Of a stretch of DNA of 64,000 nucleotides, positions 12,521 to 50,595 are shown one piece after another. The notes under the pieces are model-generated. The model worked only from the letters and a program-made list of their open reading frames with translations. It ran no database searches and was not told where the DNA came from. Position 1 is the stretch's first letter, and every line of letters begins with the position of its first letter. The position numbers were made by a program, and so were the translations under genes. The DNA lies in assembly GCF_003719825.1 (NCBI RefSeq), contig NZ_RIBS01000008.1, forward strand, positions 51,324-115,323. The letters run 5' to 3'. This stretch comes from Montanilutibacter psychrotolerans. Its GTDB lineage: Bacteria; Pseudomonadota; Gammaproteobacteria; Xanthomonadales; Xanthomonadaceae.

Positions 12521-12730
12521 CCGCCCATTCTACCGGGCGCCGTCGTCGTGGCTGCGAGGTCGGACGCTCCCGCGCGTGTGGCGCTTCACGTTTGCTTTCC
12601 CCGACGAACCGCCCGACGCCGCCGGGCGCGACGATGATGAACAGCGCGTCGCACGCGCCCGTCATTACAGCCGCCACCGCCGGGGATGGGCGGCCGCCGC
12701 TGGGCCTGGTTGTGGCGGATGCCGGGGTAG

Positions 12731-15112
<2,382 letters not shown>

Positions 15113-22693: not shown

Positions 22694-22777
22694 GGGTACC
22701 CGCTGTTCGTTTGCCGTTGTGCCATCGCCCGGCGACGACGATGCTGCCGCCGTCGTCCTGCTAGCCGGTTCCGCCGC

Positions 22778-24424
22778 CTAGGCCGATTCCGCGGCCCATG
22801 CCGCCAGTTTCTCGCGTCCGATCTTGGCATTGTGGCGAATGTCGACCGGGAACTTCGGATGGCGCAGGAAGCGTGCGATGCCGGCCGTGTGCGGATGCGC
22901 GGCGCCAATGGCGCGCAGCTCGCTCTCGATGCGCGGCCAGTGCCGGCCGTCCACGCCCTGGGCCAGCTCGACGCACAGTACCGCCTGCTGTTGTCCCATC
23001 GGCCCGATCCCGACCAACGCGGTGCGCCGCACCTGGTCGTGGACGTTGAACACCGGCTCGACCTGCTCGGTGTACAACGGACCGGACGCGCACTCGACCC
23101 GGTGCGATTTGCGGCCGCAGAACCAGAGCCGACCCTGGGCATCGAAGTAGCCCACGTCGCCCATGCGATGAACGATGCGCTCGCCGGCATCGACGTCGCC
23201 ACGCGGTTCGCGGATCTTCGCCAGCCGCGTCATTGCGTCGCGATTGAAATAGCTGTCGGTGGTGGTCGGCCCCACGACGGTGATCTCGCCCACTTCGCCC
23301 GTGGGAACGCACAGCGCGTCCGACCACCGCTCGACGGCGTCGTCGCTGATGCGGATGATACGGACCTCGTTCGGTGCGACCGCGCGACCAACGCAGGTTC
23401 CCGCGCCGCTTTCCGTTGCCGCACGCGTGGCCTGCAGCTCGCGCCCCTCGATCACTGCCACAGGCAGGCACTCGGTGGCGCCGTACGGCGTCCAGAACTG
23501 CGCATCGGCAGGCAACAGTTCCCGCATCCGCGCCACCACGTCGGCCGGCACCGGAGCACCGGCCGATGTCACGCGCTTCACGCCCGGCAGCGGCTGCCCG
23601 TGACGCGCCAGCACCGCCATCAGCGCCGGCGAGCCGAACAGCTGGTCGACACCGAAGCGCGCGATCGCATCGTGCAACCTGCGCGGGTCGGCGAGCGCTG
23701 GCTTGGTCGCGTCCATGTCCGGGATGACCGAGGTCACGCCCAGTGCCGGATCGAACAGCGCGAACGGCGGGAAGGTTGGCAGGTCCACAGCGCCGGCGCC
23801 GATGCCGAATGCTTCGCCCAGCATGGCGATCTGCGCGACGAAGTGGCGATGCCGGTAGACCACGCCCTTGGGCACGCCGGTGGAGCCGCTGGTGAACAGG
23901 ATCGCGGCGACGTCGTCGGGCCGCGTGTCGGCCAACTGTGCCGTCGCGCCGGCGCCGTCGCGCTCCACGCGCGCCAGCGTCGCGTCGGCCAGCAACGCGT
24001 GCCGGCCGGTGGTGATGCGCACGCGCGCCGATGACGCCCAACCCAGTACCACGCGAGCGAACTGCGCCAGGGGAATGCCGATGAAGGCCTCGGGCTGCGC
24101 TTCGTCGAGGCACTGCCGCAGCGCGCGGCGATCGATGCCGGGATCCACCAGCACCGGCACCGCGCCGGCCTTGAACAACGCGAACATCAGCAGGAAGAAT
24201 TCCGGCGACGGCCGCACCATCACCACCGTGCGGGTGCCGCGCACGATGCCGCGACGCGCCAGGCCAGCGGCGATCGCGTCGCTGCGCGCGTCCAGTTCGC
24301 GGTAACTCAGCTCGACGTCGTAGCGCGCCAGGCCGTCGGCGCCACGCGAGCCGGGGCAGCGCATCGCGATGCGATCGGGTGCCTCACGTGCCAGGCGCGG
24401 CAACGACGCGGCGATGTTGCACAC
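22778..24424 (-). CDS. oleC: AMP-dependent synthetase/ligase, OleC-like (beta-lactone synthetase)
   Basis: ANL-superfamily motifs TSGSTGVPKGV, YGATE, DVGYFD. Start uncertain: the ORF track extends to 24841 with a Cys/Arg/Thr-rich non-coding-looking N-terminus. Plausible starts are GTG ~24424 (VCNIAASLPRLARE...) or ATG 24370. Confidence 0.8.
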   Translation of the reverse strand: MCNIAASLPRLAREAPDRIAMRCPGSRGADGLARYDVELSYRELDARSDAIAAGLARRGIVRGTRTVVMVRPSPEFFLLMFALFKAGAVPVLVDPGIDRRALRQCLDEAQPEAFIGIPLAQFARVVLGWASSARVRITTGRHALLADATLARVERDGAGATAQLADTRPDDVAAILFTSGSTGVPKGVVYRHRHFVAQIAMLGEAFGIGAGAVDLPTFPPFALFDPALGVTSVIPDMDATKPALADPRRLHDAIARFGVDQLFGSPALMAVLARHGQPLPGVKRVTSAGAPVPADVVARMRELLPADAQFWTPYGATECLPVAVIEGRELQATRAATESGAGTCVGRAVAPNEVRIIRISDDAVERWSDALCVPTGEVGEITVVGPTTTDSYFNRDAMTRLAKIREPRGDVDAGERIVHRMGDVGYFDAQGRLWFCGRKSHRVECASGPLYTEQVEPVFNVHDQVRRTALVGIGPMGQQQAVLCVELAQGVDGRHWPRIESELRAIGAAHPHTAGIARFLRHPKFPVDIRHNAKIGREKLAAWAAESA

Positions 24425-24584
24425 GCCCGAGTCCCCAGACGATTCCCGCACGGATTGCCCCGCCCCACGATCGCCGTCGGTCGCCTCGTCGGTCACGGCT
24501 GCGGCCCGTGTCCGGCAACCATCCTCCGCGCGACGCGCGGTGGCGACGCGATGGGAAGAACGCCGGTCACCACCGCCGCCACGT

Positions 24585-25505
24585 TCATTTCGCCAGCGCG
24601 TCTGCGTCGAGGAAGCGACGGATCGCCGGCACCAGCACGTCGGCCTTGTCTTCGAGCACGTAGTGGCCCGCGTCCTCGAACTGGTGCACCTGCGCCTGCG
24701 GCAATGCGCTGGTGAATCCCGCGAGGAAGTGGTGGTCGAACACGAAGTCCTTGAGACCCCAGCCGATGAACGCCGGGCGATCGGCGTACGACGGCAACTT
24801 CGCCGCCATCGCCTGCACCAGCGGCCACGCCGCATCGCCATCGCCCAGCGGGATGTCCTGCACGAAGCGCGAGGTCGAGATGCGGTTGGCCCAGCTGTCG
24901 TACGGCGCGAGGAAGGCGCGGCGGACGGCGCGCGGCATCGGTTGCACCACGCCCATGCTGGCAGCGCCGCCGGCGAAGGCGTTGAAGCCGCGGATCAGGC
25001 CGGTGCCGATCGCCGAATCGCGCCCGAGCTTGAGGCGCTTGGGCAGCGACTTGGCCGCCGGCAGCGGGAACGCGCCGGTGTTGAGCACCACCAGGCGCTG
25101 GATCTGGTCGGAATGCCGCAGCCCCCAACCGAAGCCGATCGCCCCACCCCAGTCGTGCACGGCCAGGGTGACCGGGCCGGTGATGCCCAGGTGCGACAGC
25201 AGCGCCTCGACATCGTCGACGCGCGACTGCAGCGTGTAGCGATAGCGGTCTTCGCCGGGCTTATCGGACAGGCCCATGCCCACGTGGTCGGGCACGATGC
25301 AGCGATAGCGGTCGCGCAGGCCCAGCACCAGCTTGCGCCACAGATAGCTCCACGACGGATTGCCGTGCAGCATCACCACGGTTCCGTCGTGGTCGACGCC
25401 TTCGTCCAGGTAGCTCATCCCGATGCCGGGACGCACCTCGAAACGCTGCGCGGTGAAGGGATAGTCGGGGAAGGTCCGGGCTTGCTGGGGGCTCAGGCTC
25501 ATCGA
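24585..25505 (-). CDS. oleB: Alpha/beta-hydrolase (haloalkane-dehalogenase-like), OleB-like
   Basis: HGNPSWSYLWR, nucleophile elbow VHDWGG, C-terminal His. Start placed at the internal MSLSPQQARTF. Confidence 0.8.
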   Translation of the reverse strand, partial: SMSLSPQQARTFPDYPFTAQRFEVRPGIGMSYLDEGVDHDGTVVMLHGNPSWSYLWRKLVLGLRDRYRCIVPDHVGMGLSDKPGEDRYRYTLQSRVDDVEALLSHLGITGPVTLAVHDWGGAIGFGWGLRHSDQIQRLVVLNTGAFPLPAAKSLPKRLKLGRDSAIGTGLIRGFNAFAGGAASMGVVQPMPRAVRRAFLAPYDSWANRISTSRFVQDIPLGDGDAAWPLVQAMAAKLPSYADRPAFIGWGLKDFVFDHHFLAGFTSALPQAQVHQFEDAGHYVLEDKADVLVPAIRRFLDADALAK

Positions 25506-25622: not shown

Positions 25623-26315
25623 CTAGGCCAGGGCCGGGTACTTCGCCCACAGGGCGTCGAACTGGCCGCCGAAGCAGCGCACCAGGTAGGCGTCCTGGCT
25701 GACCACCAGGTTCTCGTCGTTGCTGGTGGTGGCGCTGCGGGTCCAGTTGAAGGAGCCGTTGGCCAGCGCGTTTCGGTCGAACAGGGCGAACTTGTGGTGC
25801 ATGTGGAACGCGCTGACGTCCAGTCGCACCGCGACGCCCTGGGCGGCCAGCATCGCGATGTCGCTGCCGGTATCGCCGCGCTTGTCGTTGTCGCTGATCA
25901 CCCGCACCGCGACGCCGCGTCGGTGGGCGGCGAGGATCTCCTCGCTGAGCCGATCGTCGGAGATAGTGTAGACGCAGATGTCCAGGCTGCGCTTGGCGCC
26001 GCGGCACATCTCGCGCAACTTGCGCAGGCAGCTTTCGCCGGGCGAGAAGTAGGCGCTGCTGGAGGCAGCGGCCACCGCAGCGGACAGGTCGAGGGTCTTG
26101 ACCACCTGTTCGAGCCAACGCAATGCATCCAGCATCCGCGCCGGCTCGGCGATCATCAGCTCGCGCGCCATCGCGAACGCGCGGTTGCGCAGGTAACGGA
26201 TGTGCTCGGCGTCGATCCGTCCGCCGAGTTCGCGCAGCTCGAACTTCTCGTCGTTGTCGAGCTGCAGGTCGGCAACGCTGCTGCGCAGCGCTTCGTCGAG
26301 TTGCTGGAAATCCAT
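25623..26315 (-). CDS. Single-HKD phospholipase-D-family protein (nuclease- or lipid-acting), 230 aa
   Basis: Perfect HKD motif HMHHKFALFDRNALANGSFN (HxKxxxxDxxxxxxGSxN) at about 25776-25805, plus an ~90-aa N-terminal helical extension. Starts 21 nt after the stop of the giant ATPase gene and is probably co-transcribed with it. Confidence 0.8.
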   Translation of the reverse strand: MDFQQLDEALRSSVADLQLDNDEKFELRELGGRIDAEHIRYLRNRAFAMARELMIAEPARMLDALRWLEQVVKTLDLSAAVAAASSSAYFSPGESCLRKLREMCRGAKRSLDICVYTISDDRLSEEILAAHRRGVAVRVISDNDKRGDTGSDIAMLAAQGVAVRLDVSAFHMHHKFALFDRNALANGSFNWTRSATTSNDENLVVSQDAYLVRCFGGQFDALWAKYPALA

Positions 26316-26336
26316 GCCGTCTCCGGTGGGTAGCGC

Positions 26337-29300
26337 TCAGCGCCGTGTACGTTCGTGCAGGCGCGCGGCGATCTCGGACAGTGCCAGATGAAGGCGCATC
26401 TGCTCCTCGGTGGACACCCCCGGGGCCGCCGGCGCGACGCTGGCGGTGGTACCGGCCGGCTGCTGCTTGAGCTGGGCGAGCGCCTCGACCAGCGATTGCT
26501 GCATCCGCTCCTGCTGTGCCTGGCGATCCTGCAGGCCGGCGACCAGCGGTGCGAACGCGGCCTGCAACGCGGCGGCGAGGTCCACCGCGCCCAGTTGCGG
26601 CTCCCGGGCGTCGGTTGGCGCCTGCGGCGCCACGACCGGGCGCGCCTGCGCCGTCGCCACGCCTTCGAGCAACTCGACGATGCGCGGCCACGGCGCCGCT
26701 TCGGCCTTCGGCGCCGGCTCGCCAACCGTGGCATCGAGCGCGCGCACGCCCTCGACCAGGTCGGCCAGCTGCGCCACCACGCGCCCGCCGACGTCATCTT
26801 CGCTGCCGCCCATCGCCTTGTTGCGCAGGAAATCGCGCTTGATCTGGGCCCAGCGTTCGGCCTGGGCAGGGTCGAGTACGCCACGCAGCTCGGCCAGCTT
26901 GAGCAGGTTCTCCTCGGCGCCCGTGGTCAGCAGTTGCGCCTCGCCCAGATAGTGATCGCCGATCAGTTGCTGCAACTCGGCCTCGTTCATCACCGGCGAA
27001 ATTTTCTCGGCCAGCTTGTTCATGTTGCGATAGCTGCCCTGCAACCGGAACGGCGGTTCGACGCGGTACTTGTCGGCCTGCGCCGCGCTGGCGATGTACT
27101 GCTGGTTGACCCGGTAGACGACGTCGCGCACCTGCATCAACCGCTGAAGGGTCGCGACGATCTCGTTGATCTCCGCGCCGCTGTACGCATGGCTCAGGTC
27201 GTTGGCGGAGAACTCCCGGCCGCGGGCCTTCTCGACCAGGCGATAGAGGTCGCCAAGATCGCGCGTGGCCAACGGTGCCAGCACCGGATTGCTGGTCAGG
27301 CAGTTCTCGACATAGCTCAGCGTGAAGGCATCCTCCATGCCGCCCAGCACGTCGCCGAGGTTGTAGATGTCGGCGCGGTTGGCCAGCATGTCCGGGATCT
27401 TGAAGACCTCGCCCGACTCGGTGTACGGGTTGCCGGCCATCACCACGCAGAACTTCTTCCCGCGCATGTCGTAGGTGCGCGTTCGCCCCTTCCACACGCC
27501 TTCGATGCGGCGCGTGCCGTCGCACAGCGAGATGAACTTCTGCAGGAATTCGGGGTGCGTGTGCTGGATGTCATCGACATACAGCATCACGTTGTTGCCC
27601 ATCTCCAGGGCGAGGTTGAGCTTTTCCAGTTCCTGTCGCGCGGTGGCGTCGGGCGCCTGCACCGGGTCGAGCGACCGCACCTCGTGGCCCAACGCAGGGC
27701 CGTTGATCTTCATGAAGATCAACCCGAGCCGATGCGCCACGTACTCCATCAGCGTGGTCTTTCCGTAGCCCGGTGGCGAGATCATCATCAGCAGGCCCAT
27801 CAGGTCGCTGCGCTTGGCCTCTCCGACCGTGCCGATCTGCTTGGCGAGGTTGTCGCCGATCACCGGCAAGTAAATGTCGTTGATCAGCTTGTTGCGCACG
27901 AACGAGCTCAACGGCCGCGGCTTGAACTCCTCCAGCCGCAGCGAGTCACGATGCCGAGCCAGCACCTCGTGACGCAGCGTCTGGTAACGCTGGAAGCCGG
28001 GAACGAACACCTCGCGGTGCTGCTGCAGGCGCGCACTGAACTCGTCCACGCCCAGCGCCAGGCGACCGCCGTCGATGCGGGCATGCTGGCCCAGCAGGCC
28101 TTCCACGACGACGCGAAGATCGACCTCGGTGACCCGGCGCGCGATGCCCTCGTCGATCAGCCACAGCGCAACGGCTTCGTCGAGGTAGTCCGAGAGCGCG
28201 GCGTGTTCGGGCTCGCTGCACAGCGCCTGCAACCAATGGCGGGCGAGGCTCCAGCGCGCGCCGAGGCGGCCGTCCAGCTGCGCGAGCGTGCGCTGCACGC
28301 CATCCCACAGATGCGCCGCGGCCAGCCGTTGCTGCAGCGCGCCGAGCAACCGCTGTGCGTATTTGCTGAAGACGAACTGCGGGTGGTCGGCCGACAGTTC
28401 GAGCACCAGGTAGGCCGCCGCGCGCGCCGCCAGCGGCGCCGCGACCGGCAGCGCCTGTGCGTCGACCACGCCCTGGATCGCGCTGGCGACCTCTCCCTGC
28501 AGGGCCTGCAACGCATCGCGCCGACCGAACATCCGCTCGATGGCGCTGGCGCTGCGTGCCCGTTCTGGCCACTGCGAGGGCAGGTCCTGTGTGCGCAACG
28601 TGGACCATGCCAGCACCGCCAGCGCACGCGCGTCAGCGGCGTGGACCAACGCACCTGCGCTGTCCAGCAACGGCAGCAGCGAGCGCAGGATCAGCGCGGC
28701 GTCGTGGTCGTGGATGCCCTTCTCGTAGCCCTCGCGGTACCGCGGCGCGGCGAAGTCGCGCAACGTGCGTTCGAGCTGTTCGGGCTGCAGCAGCTGTTGG
28801 CGCAGCAGATCCGGCGTCAGCCCGTCAGTGCGATCGCGCGCAGCGTCCAGCACCCGCCCCGCCAGGTACTCGGCGCGATACAGGGTCGCCGACTCCGAAT
28901 CGAGCGCGACCTGCCAGTAATCCCGCAGCGCCTGCAGGCCGTCGTCGTGCAGCGGCTCGAGGTAGTCGGTGCCGGTCAGCTGCAGGTTCAGGCCATCGCC
29001 GCGCGCGAGCACGGTGATGTCGAGTTCCTGCGTGTTGACGCTGAAGCGATGGCGCGGGCCCAGCTTGATGACGTCGCCGCCCGCCTCGAACAGCTCGCTG
29101 CGATCGCGCAGCGCGCGCACCGCCTGGTCGCGCGCGCCCTTGAGGCGCGCCTCGACGTCATCGGCCTTGACGTTGTCGCGCAGCGTGCGCAGTCGGGTGG
29201 CCAGCTCGCGCAGCTTGAGGATCAGCGCGTCCCCGGCGAAGAACGCATTGAGCTCGGCCGGGTCGGCCAGGCGCGCGGTGCGCCTGCCCAGGCCGTCGAG

Positions 29301-31718
29301 GATGCGCGTGGCCGCGTCCATGACCGCCTGCGCCTTGCGCTGGCGGTCGTCGAGCAGGGACTGCTTGTGGGTCTCGAAGGTTTCCAGCAGCTCTTCGCGC
29401 TTGGCGAGGATGTCGCCAAGGAACTGCTCGTGTTCGCCGAACTGGCTTTCCAGTTCTTCCAGTTGCACCAGCAACCGCGACATCTGCTCGTCGCAGCGCT
29501 CGGGATCGGTGGACAGCGCCAGTGCGCTGGTGATGCCCTGGCCGAACAGCGTGAACTGCGCGCCGAACTGGGCGATCGCCTCGCTCGATCCGAGCTGCTT
29601 GCGGCGCTGATCGGCGCGCGCCTTGGCCTGGTTGAGCCGCGCGTACACCTGCGAGATCGACTCGACGATGCGCGTGCGTTGCGTGGCGTCGTCGACCTTC
29701 AGCGTGGCCATCAGCGCCGACAGCATGTCCAGGTCGGCCGACATCGATTGCATCTGCGCCAGTGTCCTGGCGAGCTCAGCCGCGCTGACCGCCTGTTGCG
29801 CCTGCGTGTCGAGTAGCTGGAGGCGCTCGAGCAGCGGCGCGAGCGCCTTGTCGCTGGCCAGGAACCCGCCCGTGGCGGCGCCGGTGGCCTCGTGCGCGGA
29901 AAGCAGCTGCGCTTCCATCGCATCGATGGTGGCAACGTCGATGTAGCGGTACTCGCGGATCGTCAGCAGGTGCCCGCGCAGCGCCGACAAACCGTTGAGG
30001 GCGTCGACGAACTCCTGCACCTGCTGCCAGTTGTCCGGCAGCAGTGTGGCCAGCAACGCCGCCTGCCGGGCCTGCGCGTCGCGCAGCGCCTGCGCGGACT
30101 GGTCGCGGATGCCCTGCACCTTCTCGAACTCGTCGAGCACGGCCTCGCTGGTGGCGGCGATGTCGTGCAACAGCTTGCCGGTGTCGCCGCAGTTCGGGTC
30201 GGCGATCCAGTGGTGCAGGTCGAACAGGCGCCGGGTGTTCTGGCCGAGCTGCGCATAGCGCTGCACCGAGACGTCCGGGCTGTCGATCTCGCGGCACAGG
30301 CTCAGCACGTCCGACAGCCCACGAACCAGCTCGGCGTTGCCGATCTTGCCCATGAACCCGGTGCCGCGGGGCTGGTGCGCCGCGTGGTCCTCGCTGCAGA
30401 ACGGCGTCTGCCAGACCTGCATCGGATGCACGCGCGTTGGCTCCACGCCTTCGGCGCTGAAGATCACCATGCGGCCGTCGTCCAGGCGCGCCCAGCCGTG
30501 CCCGAAGATCGGCGTCTGCAGGCGACGCTCGATCATGTTGTAGGTGAACAGCGCCGAGCGTCCCTCGACGGGTTCGTAGAAGACGTACAGCACGTCCTCG
30601 CCGTTGGGCGAGCGGATCGCACGCTGGAACGCCATGCCGTGCATGGACTGCTCGAACGCCTTGTTCTCTCCGCTGGGCAGGTAGTAGCCGCCCGGGAAGA
30701 TGATGCCGTGGTCCTCGGGCAGCTGGATGCACGCCAGCCCGATCGCATCGATGCGCTGCACCGAGCGCGTGAGCGTGTTGAACACCAGGTAGCGCCACGT
30801 CGACTCGCGGTACGGCAGCACTTTCAGCAGCACCAGGCTGCCGATGGCCGCGAACTCCACGTGCGCGTCGTCGAGCGACTGCGTCTTGTCGTCCACCGGC
30901 TCGCGGTAGACGCCCAGACCGTCCTTGGTGTTGTCCTCGATCTTGATCGTCAGATCGCCGGCAAACGTCTCGACGAACAGCTTGTCGAGGATGTTGAGAT
31001 GCGGATGCCGACCGTGCACCACCATCTCGCGCGTCGCGCGGGTCCACTCGAAGTCGAACGGCGCCGGCGGCACGATATCGCGTTCACCGCGATTGTCGAT
31101 GTAGGCGACCTCGCCACTGGTGGCGACCGACCAGCGGAACACGCGGACGTCGTCGATGCGCTCGCCAATCTGGAAGGCGGCCAGCAGCTTGCCGTCGCGC
31201 ACCGCCAGCTGCACCAGCCGGGTGCTCTTGTAGTACGCGTAGAGCTCGTTGAAGTCGCGCACGAATGCGGCATCGCCGAGGAAGCTGCTCGCCGGATCGA
31301 CCGCTTCGGCATCGTAGCCGTCGGCGCCCTCGATCAGCCGATGCAGTGAGAACACGTCCTCGACACGGGTGTCCTTGCGCAGCCCGATGAACACGTTGTA
31401 GCCGAACAGCAGGCAATCGCCGACCTGGACGATGTCGCGCGCGACGCAGTTGTTCTCGGTGCGGATGCGCAGCCGCCCGACCACTTCCATCGCACTGCTG
31501 CCGAACTGCTGCAGGCGTTGCTGGTTGAGCCCTTCGGCCACGCCGCGCAGGCGCTGACCCTGGTCCGCCAGTCGCTTGTGCAGCACCTCGTAGGCGCCGC
31601 CCTGGGCCACGGCCTGGTCGATCTGCGCGGTGTCGGGCCCGGTCGATCCGGTCGGCCCGGCCGACGGCGACGAAGACGGGGCGGTCGACGAGGCGCTCTG
31701 CGAAGTGTTCTGCGACAT
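26337..31718 (-). CDS. Giant (~1,793 aa) coiled-coil protein with a single C-terminal AAA+ ATPase core of MoxR/dynein (AAA_5-like) type
   Basis: Walker A MMISPPGYGKTTL (about 27755-27790), Walker B NVMLYVDDIQHT (about 27560-27590), sensor-1-like VVMAGNPYTE, and MoxR-like spacing (DDIQHTHPEFLQKFISLCDG...IEGVWKG...FCVVMAGNP). N-terminal ~450 aa globular (beta-rich), then >700 aa of helical/coiled-coil sequence. ATG 31718 is preceded by AGGA; the ORF track starts at GTG 31736. Confidence 0.8.
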   Translation of the reverse strand: MSQNTSQSASSTAPSSSPSAGPTGSTGPDTAQIDQAVAQGGAYEVLHKRLADQGQRLRGVAEGLNQQRLQQFGSSAMEVVGRLRIRTENNCVARDIVQVGDCLLFGYNVFIGLRKDTRVEDVFSLHRLIEGADGYDAEAVDPASSFLGDAAFVRDFNELYAYYKSTRLVQLAVRDGKLLAAFQIGERIDDVRVFRWSVATSGEVAYIDNRGERDIVPPAPFDFEWTRATREMVVHGRHPHLNILDKLFVETFAGDLTIKIEDNTKDGLGVYREPVDDKTQSLDDAHVEFAAIGSLVLLKVLPYRESTWRYLVFNTLTRSVQRIDAIGLACIQLPEDHGIIFPGGYYLPSGENKAFEQSMHGMAFQRAIRSPNGEDVLYVFYEPVEGRSALFTYNMIERRLQTPIFGHGWARLDDGRMVIFSAEGVEPTRVHPMQVWQTPFCSEDHAAHQPRGTGFMGKIGNAELVRGLSDVLSLCREIDSPDVSVQRYAQLGQNTRRLFDLHHWIADPNCGDTGKLLHDIAATSEAVLDEFEKVQGIRDQSAQALRDAQARQAALLATLLPDNWQQVQEFVDALNGLSALRGHLLTIREYRYIDVATIDAMEAQLLSAHEATGAATGGFLASDKALAPLLERLQLLDTQAQQAVSAAELARTLAQMQSMSADLDMLSALMATLKVDDATQRTRIVESISQVYARLNQAKARADQRRKQLGSSEAIAQFGAQFTLFGQGITSALALSTDPERCDEQMSRLLVQLEELESQFGEHEQFLGDILAKREELLETFETHKQSLLDDRQRKAQAVMDAATRILDGLGRRTARLADPAELNAFFAGDALILKLRELATRLRTLRDNVKADDVEARLKGARDQAVRALRDRSELFEAGGDVIKLGPRHRFSVNTQELDITVLARGDGLNLQLTGTDYLEPLHDDGLQALRDYWQVALDSESATLYRAEYLAGRVLDAARDRTDGLTPDLLRQQLLQPEQLERTLRDFAAPRYREGYEKGIHDHDAALILRSLLPLLDSAGALVHAADARALAVLAWSTLRTQDLPSQWPERARSASAIERMFGRRDALQALQGEVASAIQGVVDAQALPVAAPLAARAAAYLVLELSADHPQFVFSKYAQRLLGALQQRLAAAHLWDGVQRTLAQLDGRLGARWSLARHWLQALCSEPEHAALSDYLDEAVALWLIDEGIARRVTEVDLRVVVEGLLGQHARIDGGRLALGVDEFSARLQQHREVFVPGFQRYQTLRHEVLARHRDSLRLEEFKPRPLSSFVRNKLINDIYLPVIGDNLAKQIGTVGEAKRSDLMGLLMMISPPGYGKTTLMEYVAHRLGLIFMKINGPALGHEVRSLDPVQAPDATARQELEKLNLALEMGNNVMLYVDDIQHTHPEFLQKFISLCDGTRRIEGVWKGRTRTYDMRGKKFCVVMAGNPYTESGEVFKIPDMLANRADIYNLGDVLGGMEDAFTLSYVENCLTSNPVLAPLATRDLGDLYRLVEKARGREFSANDLSHAYSGAEINEIVATLQRLMQVRDVVYRVNQQYIASAAQADKYRVEPPFRLQGSYRNMNKLAEKISPVMNEAELQQLIGDHYLGEAQLLTTGAEENLLKLAELRGVLDPAQAERWAQIKRDFLRNKAMGGSEDDVGGRVVAQLADLVEGVRALDATVGEPAPKAEAAPWPRIVELLEGVATAQARPVVAPQAPTDAREPQLGAVDLAAALQAAFAPLVAGLQDRQAQQERMQQSLVEALAQLKQQPAGTTASVAPAAPGVSTEEQMRLHLALSEIAARLHERTRR

Positions 31719-31833
31719 CAGGTGTCCATCCTGCACGGTTCGGATCCGCGACCGGGGCCGCGGGTACTGACTGTTGCGTGGCGTACCGGTCGCGCAGCCC
31801 CTGCGCAGGACGCAGGGGGCGCGGACGATTCAC

Positions 31834-33906
31834 TCAGCCGCCCAGCGATGTCTCGCTGCTCTTCTCGGCAACGTCGAGCGGCTTGCCGATAGCGGCCTTG
31901 CCATCCCCGCTCTTGGCCAGCAGGCGCTGCAGGACGTCCTGCACGATCGGGCTCTTGCCGGCCACGCCCTCGATCGCCTTGCCCACCGAGAGCGCCTTGG
32001 CGAACGAATCGAAGAACGCACCTTCGCCGCCGACGATATCGATGTTGGCCTTGCTGAGCGCCGCGGCGAGCACGTCGGACTGCTCCTTCGCGATTTCCTT
32101 GTTGGCCTCGATGCCGGCCATCGCCTGCTCGAAGCTCTTTTCCAGCTGCATGCGGAACTCTTCGTGCTGGCGTGCGTCGTCGCTGAGCGCGTCGAGCGCG
32201 TTGAACTTCTGCGCCAGGCCCTCGGCTTCCGACTTGAACTTCTGCAGCAGCACGTCGGCCTCGGACATGCCCAGGTCGCGGGTCGCCTTGGCCTTCGCGC
32301 TGCCCAGCGACTCTTCGCCGCGCGCCTGCGCGAACAGGTTCTCTTCCAGCACCTTGGCGTCGGACAAGCCCTGCTTCTGCTTGGCGTCGGCATGCGCCTC
32401 GATCACGCGCGCCTGCGCCAGGCCCTTCTCCTGCTCGCCGCGCGCCTCGGCAACGAGTTGCTCGGCAGTGACCTTGGCGTTGACCAGGCCTTCCTTCTCG
32501 GCCGCGGCCGCGGTGACCTCACGCACGCGTGCATCGGCAAGACCGGGCGCCGCGCGTTCGGCCTCGATGCCTTCGGCGAGCTTCTTCTTGGCCTCGGCCT
32601 GCTTGCCGGCCGCTTCGAGCTCGGCCTGCGCCAGCACCGTCACCTCGACCGCCTTGTGCTTGGACGCCACCTCGTCGGCCTCGGCCTGCTTCACCTGGCG
32701 GACCAGCTCCTGCTCGGCCTCGGCCTGCGCGTTGAGGATGGTGACCTGCTTGGAGCGGTCGGCCTCGGACACCTCACGCACTTCCTTGATGCGCTCTTCT
32801 TCCTGGGCAACGGTCTTCTCGACCGCAACGCGCTCGCGGATCACGTTCGCGATTTCCTTGCGCTGCACTTCCAGCGCCTTTTCCTTGTCGATCTTCTGCA
32901 GCTCGACCTCGCGCTCGCGCGACACCACTTCCAGGTCCTTGGCGCGGGTCACCTTCTCGACTTCGATGACCACCGCACGCTGGCGGTTCTGCTGGGCCAC
33001 CTCGACTTCGCGCTGGTGGTTTTCGGCACGGATGTCGAGCTGCTCCTGCACCTGGATGCGGGCCTGCTCGGCCTTGAGCCGCTCTTCTTCCTGCACCTTG
33101 GCGGTTTCGGCCTGCTCGCGCGCCTGGATGGTCAGGATCTCGCGCTTCTGGCGCGCCTCGGCGTCAGCCTGCTGGCGCTCAAGCGCCAGCATCGCTTCGC
33201 GCGCTTCGACGTTCTTCTTGGTGATCGCCAGCTTCTCGTTCTGTTCGAGTTCGTTGGTGATGACGTTCTGCGCGGCGGTCAGCTCGGTGATCTTGCGAAT
33301 GCCTTCGGCGTCGAGGATGTTGCTCGGATCGAGCGAGCTCTTCGGGGTCTGTTCGAGGTAGTCGATCGCGACGTCCTCGAGCACGTAGCCGTTGAGGTCG
33401 TTTCCGATCACTTCGATGATCTGGTCGCGGAACTGCTGGCGGTTCTCGAACAGCTTCACGAACTCGATCTGCTTGCCGACGGTCTTCAGCGCCTCGGAGA
33501 ACTTGGCGTTGAACAACTCGTTGACGGCGTCGCGGTCGGACGCGCGATCGACACCGATCGCCTTGGCCACGCGCAGCACGTCGGCCTGGGTCTCGTTGAC
33601 GCGCAGGTAGAACGCCACGGTGATGTCGGCGCGCATGTTGTCGCGACAGATCAGCCCGTCCTTGCCGCGGCGATCGACCTCCAGCGTCAGCAGGGAGATC
33701 TTCATGAACTCCTTCTTGTAGATCACCGGGTACACCATCGCGCCGGTGAAATGCACTTTCGGGGTCGCCGACAGGTCGTTGACGATCAGCGCGGTGCCCT
33801 GCGGAACCTTGACGTAGAAGGTCTTGAACAGCCCGAACATGCCCAGGATCAGGAGGAACAGGACACCGGTTCCGATCAGGAACGGCATGACTTGCGCAGC
33901 ATTCAT
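31834..33906 (-). CDS. Flotillin/SPFH (band-7) family protein, YqiK-like, with extended E/A/K-rich coiled coil (690 aa)
   Basis: N-terminal TM helix, SPFH domain (QGTALIVNDLSATPKVHFTGAMVYPVIYK...), long EA-repeat coiled coil. Located immediately downstream of a YqiJ-like gene, as in the E. coli yqiJK pair. Confidence 0.85.
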   Translation of the reverse strand: MNAAQVMPFLIGTGVLFLLILGMFGLFKTFYVKVPQGTALIVNDLSATPKVHFTGAMVYPVIYKKEFMKISLLTLEVDRRGKDGLICRDNMRADITVAFYLRVNETQADVLRVAKAIGVDRASDRDAVNELFNAKFSEALKTVGKQIEFVKLFENRQQFRDQIIEVIGNDLNGYVLEDVAIDYLEQTPKSSLDPSNILDAEGIRKITELTAAQNVITNELEQNEKLAITKKNVEAREAMLALERQQADAEARQKREILTIQAREQAETAKVQEEERLKAEQARIQVQEQLDIRAENHQREVEVAQQNRQRAVVIEVEKVTRAKDLEVVSREREVELQKIDKEKALEVQRKEIANVIRERVAVEKTVAQEEERIKEVREVSEADRSKQVTILNAQAEAEQELVRQVKQAEADEVASKHKAVEVTVLAQAELEAAGKQAEAKKKLAEGIEAERAAPGLADARVREVTAAAAEKEGLVNAKVTAEQLVAEARGEQEKGLAQARVIEAHADAKQKQGLSDAKVLEENLFAQARGEESLGSAKAKATRDLGMSEADVLLQKFKSEAEGLAQKFNALDALSDDARQHEEFRMQLEKSFEQAMAGIEANKEIAKEQSDVLAAALSKANIDIVGGEGAFFDSFAKALSVGKAIEGVAGKSPIVQDVLQRLLAKSGDGKAAIGKPLDVAEKSSETSLGG

Positions 33907-33946
33907 GGGTGCATCTCCGTAGGACGGGAACTTTGGAAGAACGGGC

Positions 33947-34585
33947 TCACAGGCCCTGGAATTCGTCTTCGCCGATCACGCGATAGGCGTTCTCGGTGGC
34001 GAGGTATTCGATGAGTACGACGCGGTCGCCGCGTTGGAACGCCTGTTGCCCGTGGCTGCGCACCTGCAGGGTCAGGGCCGCGCCACCGTCGTCGAACGCT
34101 GCGTAGCCGCGCACCGGCGACACGTCGGGACTGCGCACCACGCCGACCTGGCCGAGGATCGAACGCGCCGATGCCGGGCGCAGACGCTCGAAGACCTTGC
34201 GGAAGGGCCGCAGCACGAACGAGGTCGCAAACAGCCCGGCGAGCGCGGACAGCAGCATCACCACCACGCCCAGCACCCACCGGAGCCACTCGAACGGCAG
34301 GTGGCGCAGCAGCAGGTAGTCGGTGAAGTAGCTCGCCAGCCACGCGAAGAACACCAGCACGGTGAGGATCAGCGACAGCGGAATCCCGCCGAGGCGGAAC
34401 TTCATCAGCAGGCCGGCGACGCCTTCGATGTCCAGGCTGTCGCCATCGGGCACTTGCGCCGCGTCGAGCGCGTCGATCTCGACGATGCCCAGCGCGGCCA
34501 TCAGCCAGTAGCCCGCCGCGACCGTCAGCACAACGCTGAACAGCACGGTGGGAAACGCCAGAACAATCTGTAGGAATACGTCCAT
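33947..34585 (-). CDS. YqiJ/NfeD-like inner-membrane protein (DUF1449-like) with C-terminal OB-fold
   Basis: Three to four TM helices followed by a soluble beta-rich C-terminus (GQVGVVRSPDVSPVRGYAAFDDGGAALTLQV...GDRVVLIEY). Paired with the flotillin gene 40 nt downstream. Confidence 0.7.
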   Translation of the reverse strand: MDVFLQIVLAFPTVLFSVVLTVAAGYWLMAALGIVEIDALDAAQVPDGDSLDIEGVAGLLMKFRLGGIPLSLILTVLVFFAWLASYFTDYLLLRHLPFEWLRWVLGVVVMLLSALAGLFATSFVLRPFRKVFERLRPASARSILGQVGVVRSPDVSPVRGYAAFDDGGAALTLQVRSHGQQAFQRGDRVVLIEYLATENAYRVIGEDEFQGL

Positions 34586-34763
34586 CTCGGCCTCCCCGCC
34601 GGTAGTCCCTCATCCGGCGCCAGGTGGCGCAACGGAGTTCTTGCGAGGCCGATGACGCAGGGCGCGCGGCCCGCTGCCGGGCCGCACATCGCTGCGCTTG
34701 GCCACCGGCGCGGACGCGCTCGGTGGACGGTCAGCGACGCGCCACGCGGCGGCCGAATCGGCC

Positions 34764-35456
34764 TCAGCCGGCGGCCTTTTCCTTGAGTCGCGCCAGCACC
34801 GATTCCGCGCTGGCCGCGTCGGCGATGATGCCGGCCTCGCGCAGCTTGGTGTCGAGCGCGTCCTGGCCTTCTTCCTTGGCCAGCTCGGCCGCGGCTTCCA
34901 TGCGCGCACCGCGCTCGGCCTGCTTGTGCTTGATGCGTTCAAGCGAATCGACCGCGGTCTGCAGCCTGGTCTGCGAGCCGCTGTAGCGGTGCGCGACGGT
35001 GGCCTGCGCACGTTGCACGCTTTCGGTGGCCTTGACCGTGTCGACCTGCTGCTTGAGCCGGCGGATGTTGCCTTCCGCCTGGGCGATGGCGCGACGCAGG
35101 TCGGCCACGCTCGCGGCGAACTGTTCAACCTGCTGCCGGTCGGTGTCGCGGCTGGTCTCGAGCACCGCGATCTTTGCGGCGACTTCACGGGCGAGGTTCT
35201 CGTCGTTGGAACCCAGCGCCTTCATCGCGTAGGCCTCGTATTCGGCGATCTTCTCGTGCGACTTGGCCAGACGGCCCTCGGCGAGCTTGTGCTTGGCCAT
35301 GATCTCGGCCAGCGCTTCCTTGGAGCGGCGCAGCTCGGTATCGGAGTCGCGGATTTCCTGGTCGAGGATGCGCAGCGCCTGGCCGTCGACCAGCGTTTCG
35401 CCGACTTCGTTCGCGCCGCCACGCAGTGCGGTCAACAGCTTGCTCCAGATGTTCAT
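34764..35456 (-). CDS. PspA/IM30 (ESCRT-III-like) family protein, YjfJ-like, 230 aa
   Basis: Entire length is coiled-coil with the PspA/IM30 N-terminal signature (MNIWSKLLTALRGGANEVGETLVDGQALRILDQEIRD...) and the same size as E. coli YjfJ. Confidence 0.85.
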   Translation of the reverse strand: MNIWSKLLTALRGGANEVGETLVDGQALRILDQEIRDSDTELRRSKEALAEIMAKHKLAEGRLAKSHEKIAEYEAYAMKALGSNDENLAREVAAKIAVLETSRDTDRQQVEQFAASVADLRRAIAQAEGNIRRLKQQVDTVKATESVQRAQATVAHRYSGSQTRLQTAVDSLERIKHKQAERGARMEAAAELAKEEGQDALDTKLREAGIIADAASAESVLARLKEKAAG

Positions 35457-35483
35457 GCTCTCGTCTCCTGGCTCGGGCCTGGG

Positions 35484-35924
35484 TTATGCCGCTTCACGCA
35501 GCTGCGACTCGAACGCCTCGGTGGCGCTGATCACGTTGTCGGCAAGCGTGTCGATCTCGAACAGCACGTCCGACAGGCTCGATCCGGCGCTGAGCGCGCC
35601 GAACATGATGTAGACCGCTTCGCCATCGATGTTCTCGATGCCAATCGTCGACAGCGGGAACATCTTGTGGGTGCGCAGGACCTGCTCGTTGAACCCGGCG
35701 GGGTCGCGCACCTGCGAGACCGGCCACAGCAACGCCTCGACCACGATCTGTTCGCCCACCACGGCCATGAACAGGGGCAGGTCGCCGTAGTCGTGCATCA
35801 CCAGGTGCAGGCTGGGCTCGGCCCCGTCGAGCAACTCGACGCGCGCCGCACCGCTTTGGAACTGCTCGATCGCCGACATCGCCTCGTACAGGGCGGTCGC
35901 CGTCCAAATCTTGGGGTCGCTCAT
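35484..35924 (-). CDS. DUF2170 (YjfI-like) protein
   Basis: MSDPKIWTATALYEAMSAIEQF... with a GGAG Shine-Dalgarno 7 nt upstream of ATG 35924. The ORF continues in-frame a further 70 codons upstream (to 36134), encoding a basic N-terminal extension of uncertain reality. Confidence 0.65.
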   Translation of the reverse strand: MSDPKIWTATALYEAMSAIEQFQSGAARVELLDGAEPSLHLVMHDYGDLPLFMAVVGEQIVVEALLWPVSQVRDPAGFNEQVLRTHKMFPLSTIGIENIDGEAVYIMFGALSAGSSLSDVLFEIDTLADNVISATEAFESQLREAA

Positions 35925-36273
35925 TCCTTTCTCCCTCTGGATGGGCGCCAGGCCACGCGGCTGGCGCATGCGCTTCTCGACAGCCAGGAGCTCATCGGTG
36001 AACTCCGGCAGGATCCACAACTCCTTTTTCACCAGCCCCTTGTCGCGCAACCGCTCGCGGTGGCGTCGCTGGTAGTAGGCGGAAGATTTTCGTTCCATGT
36101 AAGACACCATATTCATCACATGTGACGTCGTCAACGGTTACACATGTGATGCCGACGAGCGGTAAGACGTCCGGCTGGCAGGCCCCATCGCACCGGCAGC
36201 GGCAGTCAGTCCTCAAACGAAAAAGCCCGGCGGATCGCTCCGCCGGGCTTCGGTTCACTGCGTGGTTGCGCGC

Positions 36274-43098: not shown

Positions 43099-43101
43099 CG
43101 G

Positions 43102-46290: not shown

Positions 46291-46302
46291 GACTATCTCT
46301 CC

Positions 46303-50036: not shown

Positions 50037-50173
50037 GCATTCGCCTCCTGAAAAACCGTTCCGTCATGGCGAAGGCCCATCGGGGTCTTCGCGAATCGTT
50101 CGTACCTGCGCCCTGTCACGCTGACAGGCGGATGGCCGGAACCCTACGGCTCCGGCGCTCCGCCCACCGCGAA

Positions 50174-50524: not shown

Positions 50525-50595
50525 GGTGGAGCTCCTTGTTGTCGATGCGGGCCGCGCTCGCGCGGCAGGGGGTGATGCGGTGGTGGCGCCGTGAC

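What the first reader, a model, noticed from the sequence alone, without database searches (positions are those of the whole stretch)
25623..36134. Seven co-directional genes combining PspA/IM30, DUF2170 (YjfI), YqiJ/NfeD, flotillin (YqiK), giant AAA+ and PLD
On the minus strand, short intergenic gaps (27, 178, 40, ~97 and 21 nt) link a YjfI-like, a YjfJ-like (PspA/ESCRT-III superfamily), a YqiJ-like and a 690-aa flotillin gene to the giant ATPase and PLD genes. In E. coli the yjfIJ and yqiJK pairs are separate loci linked to envelope stress and membrane microdomains. Here they are fused into one neighbourhood with two very unusual extra genes, which suggests a membrane-remodelling or membrane-surveillance system. 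An ATPase-driven machine working together with ESCRT-III-like and flotillin scaffolds is one possibility. The whole block sits upstream of oleBCD in the position where oleA is normally found.
Basis: inference. Interest (0 to 1): 0.8.

Follow-up and report, generated by a model that had tools for sequence, protein, structure and literature searches.

The report
Known bacABCDEF membrane-stress operon, Lysobacteraceae copy
The block is a real, tightly conserved six-gene operon (not seven), but it is the already described bacABCDEF / PspA-flotillin-AAA+-PLD operon of Pseudomonas aeruginosa and many other Proteobacteria, here sitting inside an olefin (ole) gene cluster; its molecular mechanism is still unknown.

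Summary
Six minus-strand genes (not seven) lie in 25623-36134, with the stated gaps. They encode DUF2170/BacA, PspA/IM30, a 3-TM protein, a YqiK-type flotillin, a 1799-aa DUF3686+AAA+ protein and an HKD phospholipase-D-fold protein. oleBCD follows.

The block is not new. It is the orthologue of P. aeruginosa bacABCDEF, shown co-transcribed by RT-PCR (PMC10948618). The same operon type is described in a PspA comparative-genomics paper (PMC11237479). The same order recurs in most of 80 related loci from Lysobacter, Pseudomonas, Thermomonas and Nevskia. Variants are CDE, CDEF and ABCDE.

What this analysis adds:
- The ATPase module is MoxR-like, not Vps4-like.
- BacF is closest to mitochondrial PLD6/Zucchini.
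- Full-length BacA has a conserved N-terminal domain related to MazE-like antitoxins, absent from the crystallised form.
- bacA is preceded by a conserved sigma-70-like promoter. Two TYACATGTRA palindromes flank and overlap it, the geometry suggests a leaderless mRNA, and no sigma-54 site was found.
- A conserved internal SD+ATG suggests two BacA isoforms.
- In Lysobacteraceae the operon is nested as oleA-bacABCDEF-oleBCD. This window lacks oleA.

Verdict: a new member of a known kind, of moderate-to-low interest.

The parts
36222..36251 (-). Intrinsic terminator of the upstream collagenase-like gene (13-bp stem, 9 G-C pairs, T-run). It marks the upstream limit of the transcription unit.
36152..36162 (-). 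CCGCTCGTCGG, one mismatch from the AlgR core consensus CCGTTCGTC. The perfect 9-mer sits at this position in 26 related loci, in either orientation.
   Evidence: consensus from PMC4064291 and PMC4787818
36140..36149 (-). Operator-like palindrome box 1 (TCACATGTGT), just upstream of the -35 hexamer.
36106..36134 (-). Sigma-70-like promoter: -35 TTGACG, a 17-nt spacer containing box 2, and -10 TATGGT. The ATG lies 7 nt after the -10 with no SD, which predicts a leaderless bacA mRNA.
36116..36125 (-). Operator-like palindrome box 2 (TCACATGTGA), inside the promoter spacer.
35484..36098 (-). bacA (204 aa). Residues 1-48 form a domain related to MazE-like antitoxins (PF11455); residues about 65-204 form the DUF2170/CesT-like chaperone domain.
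35922..35939 (-). Internal SD-like GGGAGAAAGG followed by the in-frame ATG of M59. Candidate start of a short, DUF2170-only BacA isoform equivalent to the 146-aa crystallised form.
34764..35456 (-). bacB, a PspA/IM30 (ESCRT-III superfamily) protein of 230 aa.
34586..34763 (-). 178-nt bacB-bacC spacer, strongly structured as RNA (dG -115 kcal/mol, z -3.2), with no T-tail.
33947..34585 (-). bacC, 212 aa: three hydrophobic segments plus a C-terminal beta-rich soluble domain. It sits in the YqiJ/YuaF ('short NfeD') position; homology was not demonstrated here.
   Evidence: PMC13086221
31834..33906 (-). bacD, a 690-aa flotillin of the YqiK family: N-terminal TM segment, SPFH/Band_7 domain, then a long coiled coil.
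26337..31736 (-). bacE, 1799 aa. DUF3686 at residues 63-509, a helical/coiled-coil region including DUF7902 at 630-714, and a MoxR-like AAA+ module at about 1290-1650 (Walker A GYGKTT, Walker B LYVDD).
25623..26315 (-). bacF, 230 aa: a soluble helical N-terminal segment of about 90 aa, then a single HKD PLD-fold domain (HHKFALFD at residue 173) closest to PLD6/Zucchini.
21683..25501 (-). oleB-like alpha/beta hydrolase, oleC and oleD, directly downstream. No terminator-like site lies between bacF and oleB.

Best explanation
Identity. The block is the Montanilutibacter (Lysobacteraceae) orthologue of the bacABCDEF operon. It is one transcription unit encoding a PspA/IM30-flotillin membrane-maintenance module.

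Proposed working, inferred unless marked otherwise:
1. bacA is transcribed from a sigma-70-type promoter, probably as a leaderless mRNA.
2. Full-length BacA dimerises through its CesT-like domain. It binds the two TYACATGTRA palindromes that straddle the -35 hexamer and spacer through its MazE-like N-terminal domain, and so represses the operon. This fits the published 6-13-fold accumulation of BacB-F in a PA14 bacA mutant.
3. A short BacA isoform made from a conserved internal SD+ATG, and/or binding of BacA to the PspA-like BacB, would tune repression by partner switching when BacB is drawn to damaged membrane.
4. BacC (3-TM) and BacD (flotillin) form an SPFH microdomain in the inner membrane.
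5. BacB polymerises on stressed membrane, as PspA and Vipp1 do.
6. BacE is a soluble giant with an N-terminal DUF3686 domain, a long coiled coil and a MoxR-like AAA+ ring. It would use ATP to assemble or remodel this scaffold.
7. BacF is a PLD6-like single-HKD hydrolase that would act as a dimer. It would modify a local substrate, most likely cardiolipin or another anionic phospholipid, less likely nucleic acid.

Shown: gene content, homology, synteny, the promoter and operator motifs, and the absence of internal terminator-like sites. Taken from the literature: co-transcription, BacA-dependent levels, and biofilm, rhamnolipid and virulence phenotypes in P. aeruginosa. Inferred: DNA binding by BacA, the leaderless start, the two isoforms, and the roles of BacE and BacF.
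For: Identity.
- NCBIfam BacA equivalog scores above its cutoff.
- PDB 8q8o (PA14 BacA) matches at E 7e-46.
- Most of the 80 loci, including P. paraeruginosa L071, keep the order A-B-C-D-E-F on one strand with 47-88% protein identity.
- The literature reports RT-PCR across all five junctions and co-accumulation of BacB-F in a bacA mutant (PMC10948618). The same operon type is described in PMC11237479.

One transcription unit.
- A strong terminator lies just upstream of the block, and no minus-strand terminator-like site lies inside it.

Component families.
- PspA_IM30, 177 bits, with Vipp1 structure matches.
- Band_7, and E. coli YqiK at E 1e-42.
- BacF matches PLD6 at E 2e-28, about 40% identity, and the HKD motif is present in 64 of 64 orthologues.

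Regulation.
- The -35 / 17-nt spacer / -10 / 6-7 nt / ATG geometry, with two palindromes, recurs in about 64 loci.
- TYACATGTRA occurs nowhere else in the 64-kb window or in the roughly 21-kb loci.
- L076 lacks both the N-domain and the boxes. L049, L078 and L080 have altered N-termini together with altered boxes.
- A profile of the N-domain finds only 106 cluster representatives. Of 45 of these hits that were scanned, 14 match Pfam MazE-like, best E 8.9e-6.
- An internal ATG with an SD-like motif is present in 66 of 69 loci, against a 12% background.
Against: - No experiment or transcript data exist for this organism.
- The window BacA N-domain itself hits MazE-like only weakly (E 0.096), and AlphaFold models it with pLDDT below 50. 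DNA binding is therefore inferred.
- Published work proposes a sigma-54 promoter for bacA. I found no match in the window or in P. paraeruginosa, but this does not exclude a weak site.
- The PA14 bacA mutant is a transposon insertion, so raised downstream protein levels could come from read-out rather than derepression.
- A PA14 flotillin (paFlo3 = bacD) deletion has only marginal phenotypes (PMC13086221).
- BacF's closest relatives include true nucleases (Nuc, NucT, Zucchini), so a lipid substrate is not established.
- MoxR ATPases normally pair with a VWA protein, and none is in the operon.
- BacF, and BacA/BacB, are absent from some otherwise intact loci. The six proteins are therefore not an obligate complex.
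Confidence: 0.8

Rival explanations
1. BacE and BacF, or the whole block, form an anti-phage or abortive-infection defence system. A giant ATPase senses infection or membrane perturbation and licenses a PLD-family nuclease. The PspA and flotillin genes would act as sensors or as protection against self-damage.
For: - BacF resembles the nucleases NucT, Nuc and Zucchini and the defence PLDs DrmC, DpdK and MkoB/C (NCBIfam and PADLOC hits at E 1e-5 to 6e-10).
- Pfam and NCBI label DUF3686 proteins as 'DNA repair ATPase'.
- The distribution among Pseudomonas species is patchy and looks like horizontal transfer (PMC13086221).
- The AAA+ module is very similar across phyla.
Against: - BacE gives only one marginal, non-significant PADLOC match (LmuB, E 0.005, 14 bits), and BacF scores far below every defence-family cutoff.
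- PLD is the most dispensable gene, missing from several intact loci.
- Proteins are 55-88% identical across genera, and the locus holds a fixed chromosomal position between oleA and oleBCD in Lysobacteraceae. This is unlike fast-evolving defence islands.
- No flanking repeats or mobile-element genes were found.
- P. aeruginosa mutants show biofilm, rhamnolipid and virulence phenotypes. No phage-defence phenotype turned up in the papers read here.
Confidence: 0.1
2. The block is three independent modules, bacAB (yjfIJ-like), bacCD (yqiJK-like) and bacEF. They merely lie next to each other and do not work together.
For: - E. coli keeps yjfIJ and yqiJK at separate loci.
- Natural variants exist with CDE only, CDEF, or ABCDE.
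- Standalone homologues of the AAA+ module, about 620 aa, occur with no bac gene nearby.
- A 178-nt structured spacer separates bacB from bacC.
Against: - The order, strand and short gaps are conserved across most of the 80 loci in several genera.
- No internal terminator-like sites were found.
- RT-PCR spans every junction, and all five downstream proteins rise together in the PA14 bacA mutant (PMC10948618).
- In the related loci, bacC, bacD and bacE were missing only where a contig end or assembly break intervenes.
Confidence: 0.05
3. In Lysobacteraceae the operon is functionally tied to olefin biosynthesis. oleBCD would be read through from the bac promoter, so that membrane hydrocarbon synthesis and the PspA/flotillin module are co-regulated.
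For: - The arrangement oleA-bacABCDEF-oleBCD is seen in L001, L041, L043 and L047. oleB (+/- oleC) also follows bacF in L051 and L061, where oleA was not detected. oleA lies upstream of bacA in six more loci.
- There is no terminator-like site in the roughly 120-nt bacF-oleB gap of the window.
Against: - Pseudomonas and other carriers of the operon showed no ole gene in the flanks searched.
- Several Lysobacter loci have oleA upstream but no oleBCD within 5 kb downstream.
- The window itself has lost the oleA linkage.
- A -10-like GATAAT in the gap could give oleB its own promoter.
- Insertion of a mobile operon into a permissive intergenic site explains the pattern equally well.
Confidence: 0.05

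Closest known systems
Pseudomonas aeruginosa bacABCDEF (PA3732-PA3727 / PA14_16140-16200), the 'biofilm-associated cluster'
   Same: It has the same six genes in the same order and orientation. BacA passes the NCBIfam equivalog cutoff and matches the BacA crystal structure 8q8o. The P. paraeruginosa locus L071 is 54-80% identical protein by protein and carries the same twin-palindrome promoter.
   Different: - The host family differs (Lysobacteraceae).
- Here the operon is followed by oleBCD.
- The published BacA (146 aa, crystallised) starts at the internal Met and lacks the N-terminal domain found here.
- The published promoter proposal is sigma-54, which I could not find.
CesT/Tir-PspA + band-7/flotillin + AAA+ + YqiJ/YuaF (+ PLD) operon class of Ravi et al. 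2024 (PMC11237479)
   Same: The domain content matches exactly, including the remark that some Proteobacteria add an HKD phospholipase D. The shortened flotillin-YqiJ-AAA+ forms that they describe also appear among my loci.
   Different: That description is purely computational and gives no regulatory detail. The BacA N-domain, the operators and the ole nesting are not mentioned in the passages I read.
E. coli yjfIJ(KLMC) and yqiJK; B. subtilis yuaF-floT
   Same: YjfI corresponds to the DUF2170 domain, YjfJ to the PspA family, and YqiK to the flotillin (30% identity, E 1e-42). A 3-TM partner gene lies upstream of the flotillin gene.
   Different: - The E. coli pairs sit at separate loci.
- They have no DUF3686 ATPase and no PLD.
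- The 133-aa E. coli YjfI is too short to hold the N-terminal domain (inferred from its annotated length), and its locus L082 has no palindrome.
- Homology between BacC and YqiJ was not demonstrable by sequence.
Classical Psp system (pspF / pspABCDE)
   Same: It has a PspA-family effector and a dedicated regulator that probably binds it. P. aeruginosa BacB is induced by osmotic stress (PMC2587700).
   Different: - There is no PspF, PspB or PspC.
- No sigma-54 consensus was found.
- Regulation appears to work through a repressor (BacA) rather than a sequestered activator.
Mitochondrial cardiolipin hydrolase PLD6 (MitoPLD/Zucchini) and bacterial Nuc/NucT
   Same: BacF has a single HKD domain. 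Its best solved-structure match is PLD6 (E 2e-28, about 40% identity), and the catalytic H-x-K-x4-D and GSxN motifs are conserved.
   Different: BacF has a soluble helical N-terminal segment of about 90 aa where PLD6 has a membrane anchor (from general knowledge). Its substrate is unknown.
MoxR-class AAA+ ATPases (CbbQ, NorQ, RavA)
   Different: - BacE is about six times larger, with a DUF3686 N-domain and roughly 700 residues of helical or coiled-coil linker.
- No VWA partner is encoded in the operon.
- The Walker B motif is DD rather than DE.

Membership tests
bacABCDEF operon (P. aeruginosa Bac system) | Six co-directional genes in the order DUF2170, PspA, 3-TM protein, flotillin, DUF3686-AAA+, PLD | tested here: met
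   the same order is seen in most of the 80 loci, including P. paraeruginosa
bacABCDEF operon (P. aeruginosa Bac system) | BacA orthology | tested here: met
   NF050185 equivalog scores 342 bits against a cutoff of 300; PDB 8q8o matches at E 7e-46
bacABCDEF operon (P. aeruginosa Bac system) | Co-transcription of all six genes | not testable with these tools
   Only indirect evidence: a terminator lies upstream, none inside. RT-PCR exists for PA14 only.
bacABCDEF operon (P. aeruginosa Bac system) | Biofilm, rhamnolipid and virulence phenotype of mutants | not testable with these tools
   Taken from the literature on P. aeruginosa
PspA/IM30 (ESCRT-III superfamily): BacB | Full-length match to the PspA_IM30 profile and to solved Vipp1/PspA structures | tested here: met
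   176.7 bits against a cutoff of 33.9, covering residues 2-227; Vipp1 at E 7e-9
SPFH/flotillin, YqiK family: BacD | N-terminal membrane segment, then a Band_7/SPFH domain, then a coiled coil, with similarity to YqiK | tested here: met
   Band_7 scores 29.2 bits against 23.6 when the N-terminal 246 aa are scanned alone; there is no hit on the full-length protein. YqiK matches at 30% identity over 468 aa, E 1e-42.
YqiJ / NfeD family: BacC | Sequence homology to YqiJ (DUF1449/YqiJ_N) or to the NfeD profile | tested here: inconclusive
   BLASTP E 0.38. hhalign E 0.003, probability 10%. One of 12 orthologues hits YqiJ_N, at E 0.088. Only the 3-TM plus C-terminal beta-domain architecture and the gene position agree.
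PLD superfamily, single-HKD Nuc/PLD6 branch: BacF | PLDc_2 domain with H-x-K-x4-D and GSxN motifs | tested here: met
   92.8 bits against a cutoff of 27. The HKD motif is present in 64 of 64 orthologues. PLD6 matches at E 2e-28.
PLD superfamily, single-HKD Nuc/PLD6 branch: BacF | Substrate class (phospholipid or nucleic acid) | not testable with these tools
   Both activities are reported for the closest relatives. An enzyme assay is needed.
MoxR-class AAA+: BacE C-terminal module | AAA+ fold with Walker A and B motifs, closest to MoxR structures | tested here: met
MoxR-class AAA+: BacE C-terminal module | Partner protein with a VWA domain encoded alongside | tested here: not met
   No VWA domain in any of the six proteins
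Vps4-type ESCRT-III disassembly ATPase | Classical-clade AAA with an MIT domain, closest to Vps4 in structure | tested here: not met
Known anti-phage defence systems (PADLOC) | Significant match of the signature proteins | tested here: not met
   BacE: LmuB at E 0.005 only. BacF: DrmC at 37 bits and weak Mko hits. The NCBIfam DrmC and DpdK scores are far below their cutoffs.
Psp regulon type of control (sigma-54 / PspF) | A GG-N10-GC sigma-54 promoter upstream of the first gene | tested here: not met
   The best matches have at least 4 of 11 mismatches and lack the GG/GC cores, both in the window and in L071. A conserved sigma-70-like promoter is found instead.
MazE-like antitoxin domain (PF11455): BacA N-terminus | Significant match to the Pfam profile | tested here: inconclusive
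   The window sequence scores E 0.096, 13 bits against a cutoff of 22. However, 14 of 45 homologues recovered with the N-domain profile match, best E 8.9e-6.

The most novel reading that the evidence does not exclude
The Bac system would be an ATP-driven lipid-remodelling repair machine. The giant MoxR-like BacE would dock on the BacC/BacD flotillin platform and control the PLD6-like BacF. BacF would convert cardiolipin to phosphatidic acid at damage sites, creating the curvature and charge on which the ESCRT-III-like BacB polymerises. This would be a bacterial counterpart of MitoPLD-dependent membrane remodelling in mitochondria.

The system would be switched by a bifunctional BacA. BacA would be made in two isoforms: a long, leaderless form that acts as a DNA-binding repressor, and a short, SD-driven form that acts only as a chaperone. 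BacA would partner-switch with BacB. In Lysobacteraceae the system would be co-expressed with olefin synthesis.
Probability: 0.15. Interest if true: 0.7.

Novelty: new member of a known kind. Interest (0 to 1): 0.3.

Why it matters
The gene block itself adds little. It is another copy of an operon already named in P. aeruginosa and already catalogued in a PspA comparative-genomics study.

Its value lies in the open question behind it: what a PspA/ESCRT-III-like protein, a flotillin, a 1,800-residue MoxR-like ATPase and a PLD6-like hydrolase do together. The regulatory features found here make that question more tractable:
- a conserved twin-palindrome operator found only at this promoter;
- a previously unannotated MazE-like N-terminal domain on BacA;
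- a probable leaderless start;
- a probable second isoform;
- a candidate AlgR site.

These give direct, cheap experiments. They also suggest that the published 146-aa BacA structure and the sigma-54 promoter model are incomplete.

Tried and rejected
- Sigma-54 promoter. There is no acceptable TGGCAC-N5-TTGC match upstream of bacA in the window or in P. paraeruginosa.
- Defence-system assignment. PADLOC gives only weak PLD hits.
- Mobile-element boundaries. No meaningful direct or inverted repeats flank the block.
- Rfam. Nothing lies in the block; the only hit is sX13 at 4477-4586.
- oleA in the window. None was found by tblastn with a Lysobacter OleA or by Pfam/NCBIfam scans of neighbouring ORFs.
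- BacC as YqiJ/NfeD. Not demonstrable by BLASTP, hhalign or Pfam.
- Literature search for 'DUF3686' returned no papers. The search for bacE/PA3728 found only the Wallart paper.
- The many AAA+ hits of about 615 aa at first looked like gene-calling artefacts. L084 is one: a full-length BacE is encoded there. L086-L088 are genuine standalone genes.
- The AlphaFold model of the BacA N-domain was too uncertain (pLDDT below 50) for a fold search.
- The Budvicia locus L083 is broken by frameshifts and was used only qualitatively.

Full report
**What is in the sequence**

The window has about 68% G+C. One protein (see below) is 100% identical to a protein of Montanilutibacter psychrotolerans, family Lysobacteraceae.

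Between 25623 and 36134 there are six minus-strand ORFs with coding-type codon bias, GC3 0.87-0.91. The finding says seven. Its own title lists six products and its text lists five gaps, so I treat seven as a miscount. The gaps are as stated: 27, 178, 40, 97 and 21 nt.

Profile searches give these assignments:
- 35484-36134: DUF2170.
- 34764-35456: PspA_IM30.
- 26337-31736: DUF3686 + DUF7902 + AAA.
- 25623-26315: PLDc_2.

The 690-aa ORF gave no Pfam hit as a whole. Its first 246 residues alone pass the Band_7 threshold, and it is 30% identical to E. coli YqiK, E 1e-42. The flotillin call is therefore correct.

The 212-aa ORF has three hydrophobic segments and a beta-rich C-terminal domain. I could not show homology to YqiJ or NfeD by BLASTP, hhalign or Pfam. 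That label rests on architecture, gene position and the literature.

An alpha/beta hydrolase (OleB-like) lies downstream, followed by OleC and OleD, both of which score above their NCBIfam equivalog cutoffs.

**It is a known operon**

The first gene passes NCBI's equivalog model 'biofilm formation regulator BacA'. It also matches the crystal structure of P. aeruginosa PA14 BacA, PDB 8q8o, at E 7e-46.

Three papers cover the system:
- Macé et al. 2008 named PA3732-PA3729 the biofilm-associated cluster.
- Wallart et al. 2024 extended it to six genes, bacA-bacF. They showed RT-PCR products across all five junctions and a 6-13-fold accumulation of BacB-F in a bacA transposon mutant.
- Ravi et al. 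2024 describe the same operon class. [quoted passage not shown] They note shortened flotillin-YqiJ-AAA+ versions elsewhere.

García-Maldonado et al. 2026 call the flotillin PaFlo3 and its upstream partner a short NfeD. They find only marginal phenotypes for its deletion.

**Conservation**

A scan of one genome per species found at least 576 stretches encoding a relative of the ATPase N-terminus. In the best 80 loci I located all six proteins by tblastn. These loci come from Lysobacter, Thermomonas, Marilutibacter, many Pseudomonas-group genera including P. paraeruginosa, and Nevskia.

- The order A-B-C-D-E-F on one strand is kept in most loci whose contigs are long enough.
- Natural variants lack F (for example L024, L042, L063), lack A and B (L053, L056, L064), or carry CDEF (L058, and Budvicia L083 with a rhomboid gene inserted).
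- C, D and E were missing only where a contig end or an assembly break intervenes. This matches the published 'core'.

The linkage is therefore real, but it is not special to this genome.

**The individual proteins**

BacB matches solved Vipp1/PspA structures.

BacF has an intact H-x-K-x4-D motif, as do 64 of 64 orthologues. A colinear N-terminal segment of about 90 aa with no hydrophobic stretch is also shared. Its best solved relatives are mammalian mitochondrial cardiolipin hydrolase PLD6/Zucchini (E 2e-28, about 40% identity), well ahead of bacterial Nuc (1e-11) and NucT. That family includes both a reported lipid hydrolase and nucleases, so the substrate stays open.

Some homologues of about 620 aa covering only the AAA+ module are genuine standalone genes in unrelated contexts.

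PADLOC gave no convincing defence-system match.

**Regulation: observations I did not find in the papers read**

A strong intrinsic terminator at 36251-36222 ends the upstream collagenase-like gene. No minus-strand terminator-like site follows until beyond oleB.

The published 146-aa BacA starts at an internal Met. In the window, in NCBI's annotation of this species, and in P. paraeruginosa, the ORF extends about 59 codons further. This extension encodes a conserved basic segment, ME(R/N)KSSA(Y/H)YQRxxRxRLRxxGLxKKExWxLPE.

A profile of this segment, searched against 1.84 billion cluster representatives, finds only 106. They are either BacA-like proteins or standalone proteins of 45-100 aa. Of 45 of these hits scanned against Pfam, 14 match PF11455, 'MazE-like antitoxin', best E 8.9e-6. 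The window sequence itself is only marginal, E 0.096, and AlphaFold does not fold the domain confidently as a monomer.

About 64 loci share one arrangement immediately upstream of this extended start:
- a 10-bp palindrome TYACATGTRA;
- a TTGAnn -35 hexamer;
- a 17-nt spacer that contains a second copy of the palindrome;
- a TAnnnT -10 hexamer;
- the ATG 6-7 nt later, with no Shine-Dalgarno sequence.

This is the geometry of a sigma-70 promoter giving a leaderless mRNA, with operators over the -35 hexamer and the spacer.

The palindrome occurs nowhere else in the 64-kb window, nor in the roughly 21-kb loci. It is absent from loci that lack bacA and from the E. coli yjfI locus.

Natural controls fit BacA as the binding protein:
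- L076 has a BacA without the N-domain. It has an ordinary SD and no palindromes.
- L049 has both boxes changed to CACGCGTG together with a degenerate N-terminus.
- L078 and L080 have a variant N-terminus and different boxes.

I found no sigma-54 consensus in the window or in P. paraeruginosa.

The conserved internal Met (M59) lies in an otherwise variable linker. It is preceded by an SD-like purine tract in 66 of 69 loci, against 12% for arbitrary ATGs nearby. This suggests a second, chaperone-only isoform, which would be the form that was crystallised.

About 10 nt upstream of box 1, 26 loci carry a perfect AlgR core site, CCGTTCGTC, in one orientation in Lysobacteraceae and the other in Ectopseudomonas. 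The window has CCGCTCGTC (consensus).

**The ole context**

In L001, L041, L043 and L047 a PRK09258-type ketosynthase (OleA-like) lies upstream of bacA and oleB/C(/D) lies downstream of bacF. oleB (+/- oleC) also follows bacF in L051 and L061. Six more loci have the oleA side only.

The operon is therefore nested in the ole cluster in part of the Lysobacteraceae. In this window, oleA is replaced upstream by a collagenase-like gene, a GntR-family regulator and a type VI secretion region, and no oleA is present within 64 kb.

The roughly 120-nt bacF-oleB gap has no terminator-like site, but it does have a -10-like GATAAT. Read-through is possible and untested.

**Verdict**

Identity as a bacABCDEF orthologue is near certain.

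The working model is a BacA-autorepressed PspA-flotillin membrane-maintenance module, assisted by a MoxR-like giant ATPase and a PLD6-like hydrolase. It is the best-supported reading, but beyond regulation it remains inference.

The rivals are less likely for the reasons given in their entries: a defence system, three independent modules, and functional coupling to ole.

The finding as written is a new member of a known kind. Its interest is modest. It is raised slightly by the regulatory features, which are directly testable and appear to revise the published picture of BacA.

Noticed in passing
window 36106-36162 (-); same position in about 64 of L001-L075 and in L084: Twin TYACATGTRA palindromes sit 22-24 bp apart, flanking and overlapping a sigma-70-like promoter, with the ATG 6-7 nt after the -10 hexamer. 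This suggests a leaderless mRNA. The motif occurs nowhere else in the window or the loci.
   Followed up: yes
window 35949-36098 (-) (BacA residues 1-50): BacA has a conserved N-terminal domain that is missing from the crystallised 146-aa P. aeruginosa form. It is related, through intermediate homologues, to Pfam MazE-like antitoxins, and it also exists as standalone proteins of 45-100 aa.
   Followed up: yes
window 35922-35939 (-): A conserved internal SD-like tract plus an in-frame ATG (M59) lies in the variable BacA linker, in 66 of 69 loci against a 12% background. BacA may have two isoforms.
   Followed up: partly
window 36152-36162 (-); e.g. L001 5660-5668, L016 5212-5220: An AlgR-type core site, CCGTTCGTC, lies about 10 nt upstream of operator box 1 in 26 loci. 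Its orientation is opposite in Lysobacteraceae and Ectopseudomonas. The window has one mismatch (CCGCTCGTC).
   Followed up: partly
L001, L041, L043, L047 (oleA ... bacA-F ... oleBCD); L051, L061 (oleB side); L002, L011, L026, L031, L038, L044 (oleA side only): The bac operon is nested between oleA and oleBCD in part of the Lysobacteraceae. The window keeps oleBCD but has no oleA within 64 kb.
   Followed up: partly
window 34586-34763 (-): The bacB-bacC spacer folds into a very stable RNA structure (dG -115 kcal/mol, z -3.2 against shuffles) without a T-tail. It could be a processing or stability element that separates bacAB expression from bacCDEF expression.
   Followed up: no
L086 10001-11878, L087 8001-9878, L088 8001-9848: Standalone proteins of about 620 aa match the BacE AAA+ module closely (66% identity to residues 1200-1658 in L086). 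They occur in unrelated gene contexts, so BacE looks like a fusion of this module with a DUF3686/coiled-coil N-terminal part.
   Followed up: partly
window 42025-53583 (-): A type VI secretion region lies upstream: ClpV-like ATPase (50596-53583), VgrG (47243-50119), a DUF4123 adaptor (46303-47274) and a VasX-N-domain toxin (43102-46290), followed by an unannotated 357-aa ORF that might be an immunity protein.
   Followed up: no
window 4477-4586 (-): The Xanthomonadaceae sRNA sX13 is present (Rfam RF02232, 69 bits).
   Followed up: no
window 36274-39135 (-): A 953-aa collagenase-like secreted protease (weak ColA match) occupies the position where relatives have oleA or an RTX-like gene. It ends in a strong terminator.
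   Followed up: no
L083 (Budvicia aquatica) 3343-13292: This is a bacCDE + rhomboid + PLD version without bacAB. The genes are broken by many frameshifts in this assembly.
   Followed up: no
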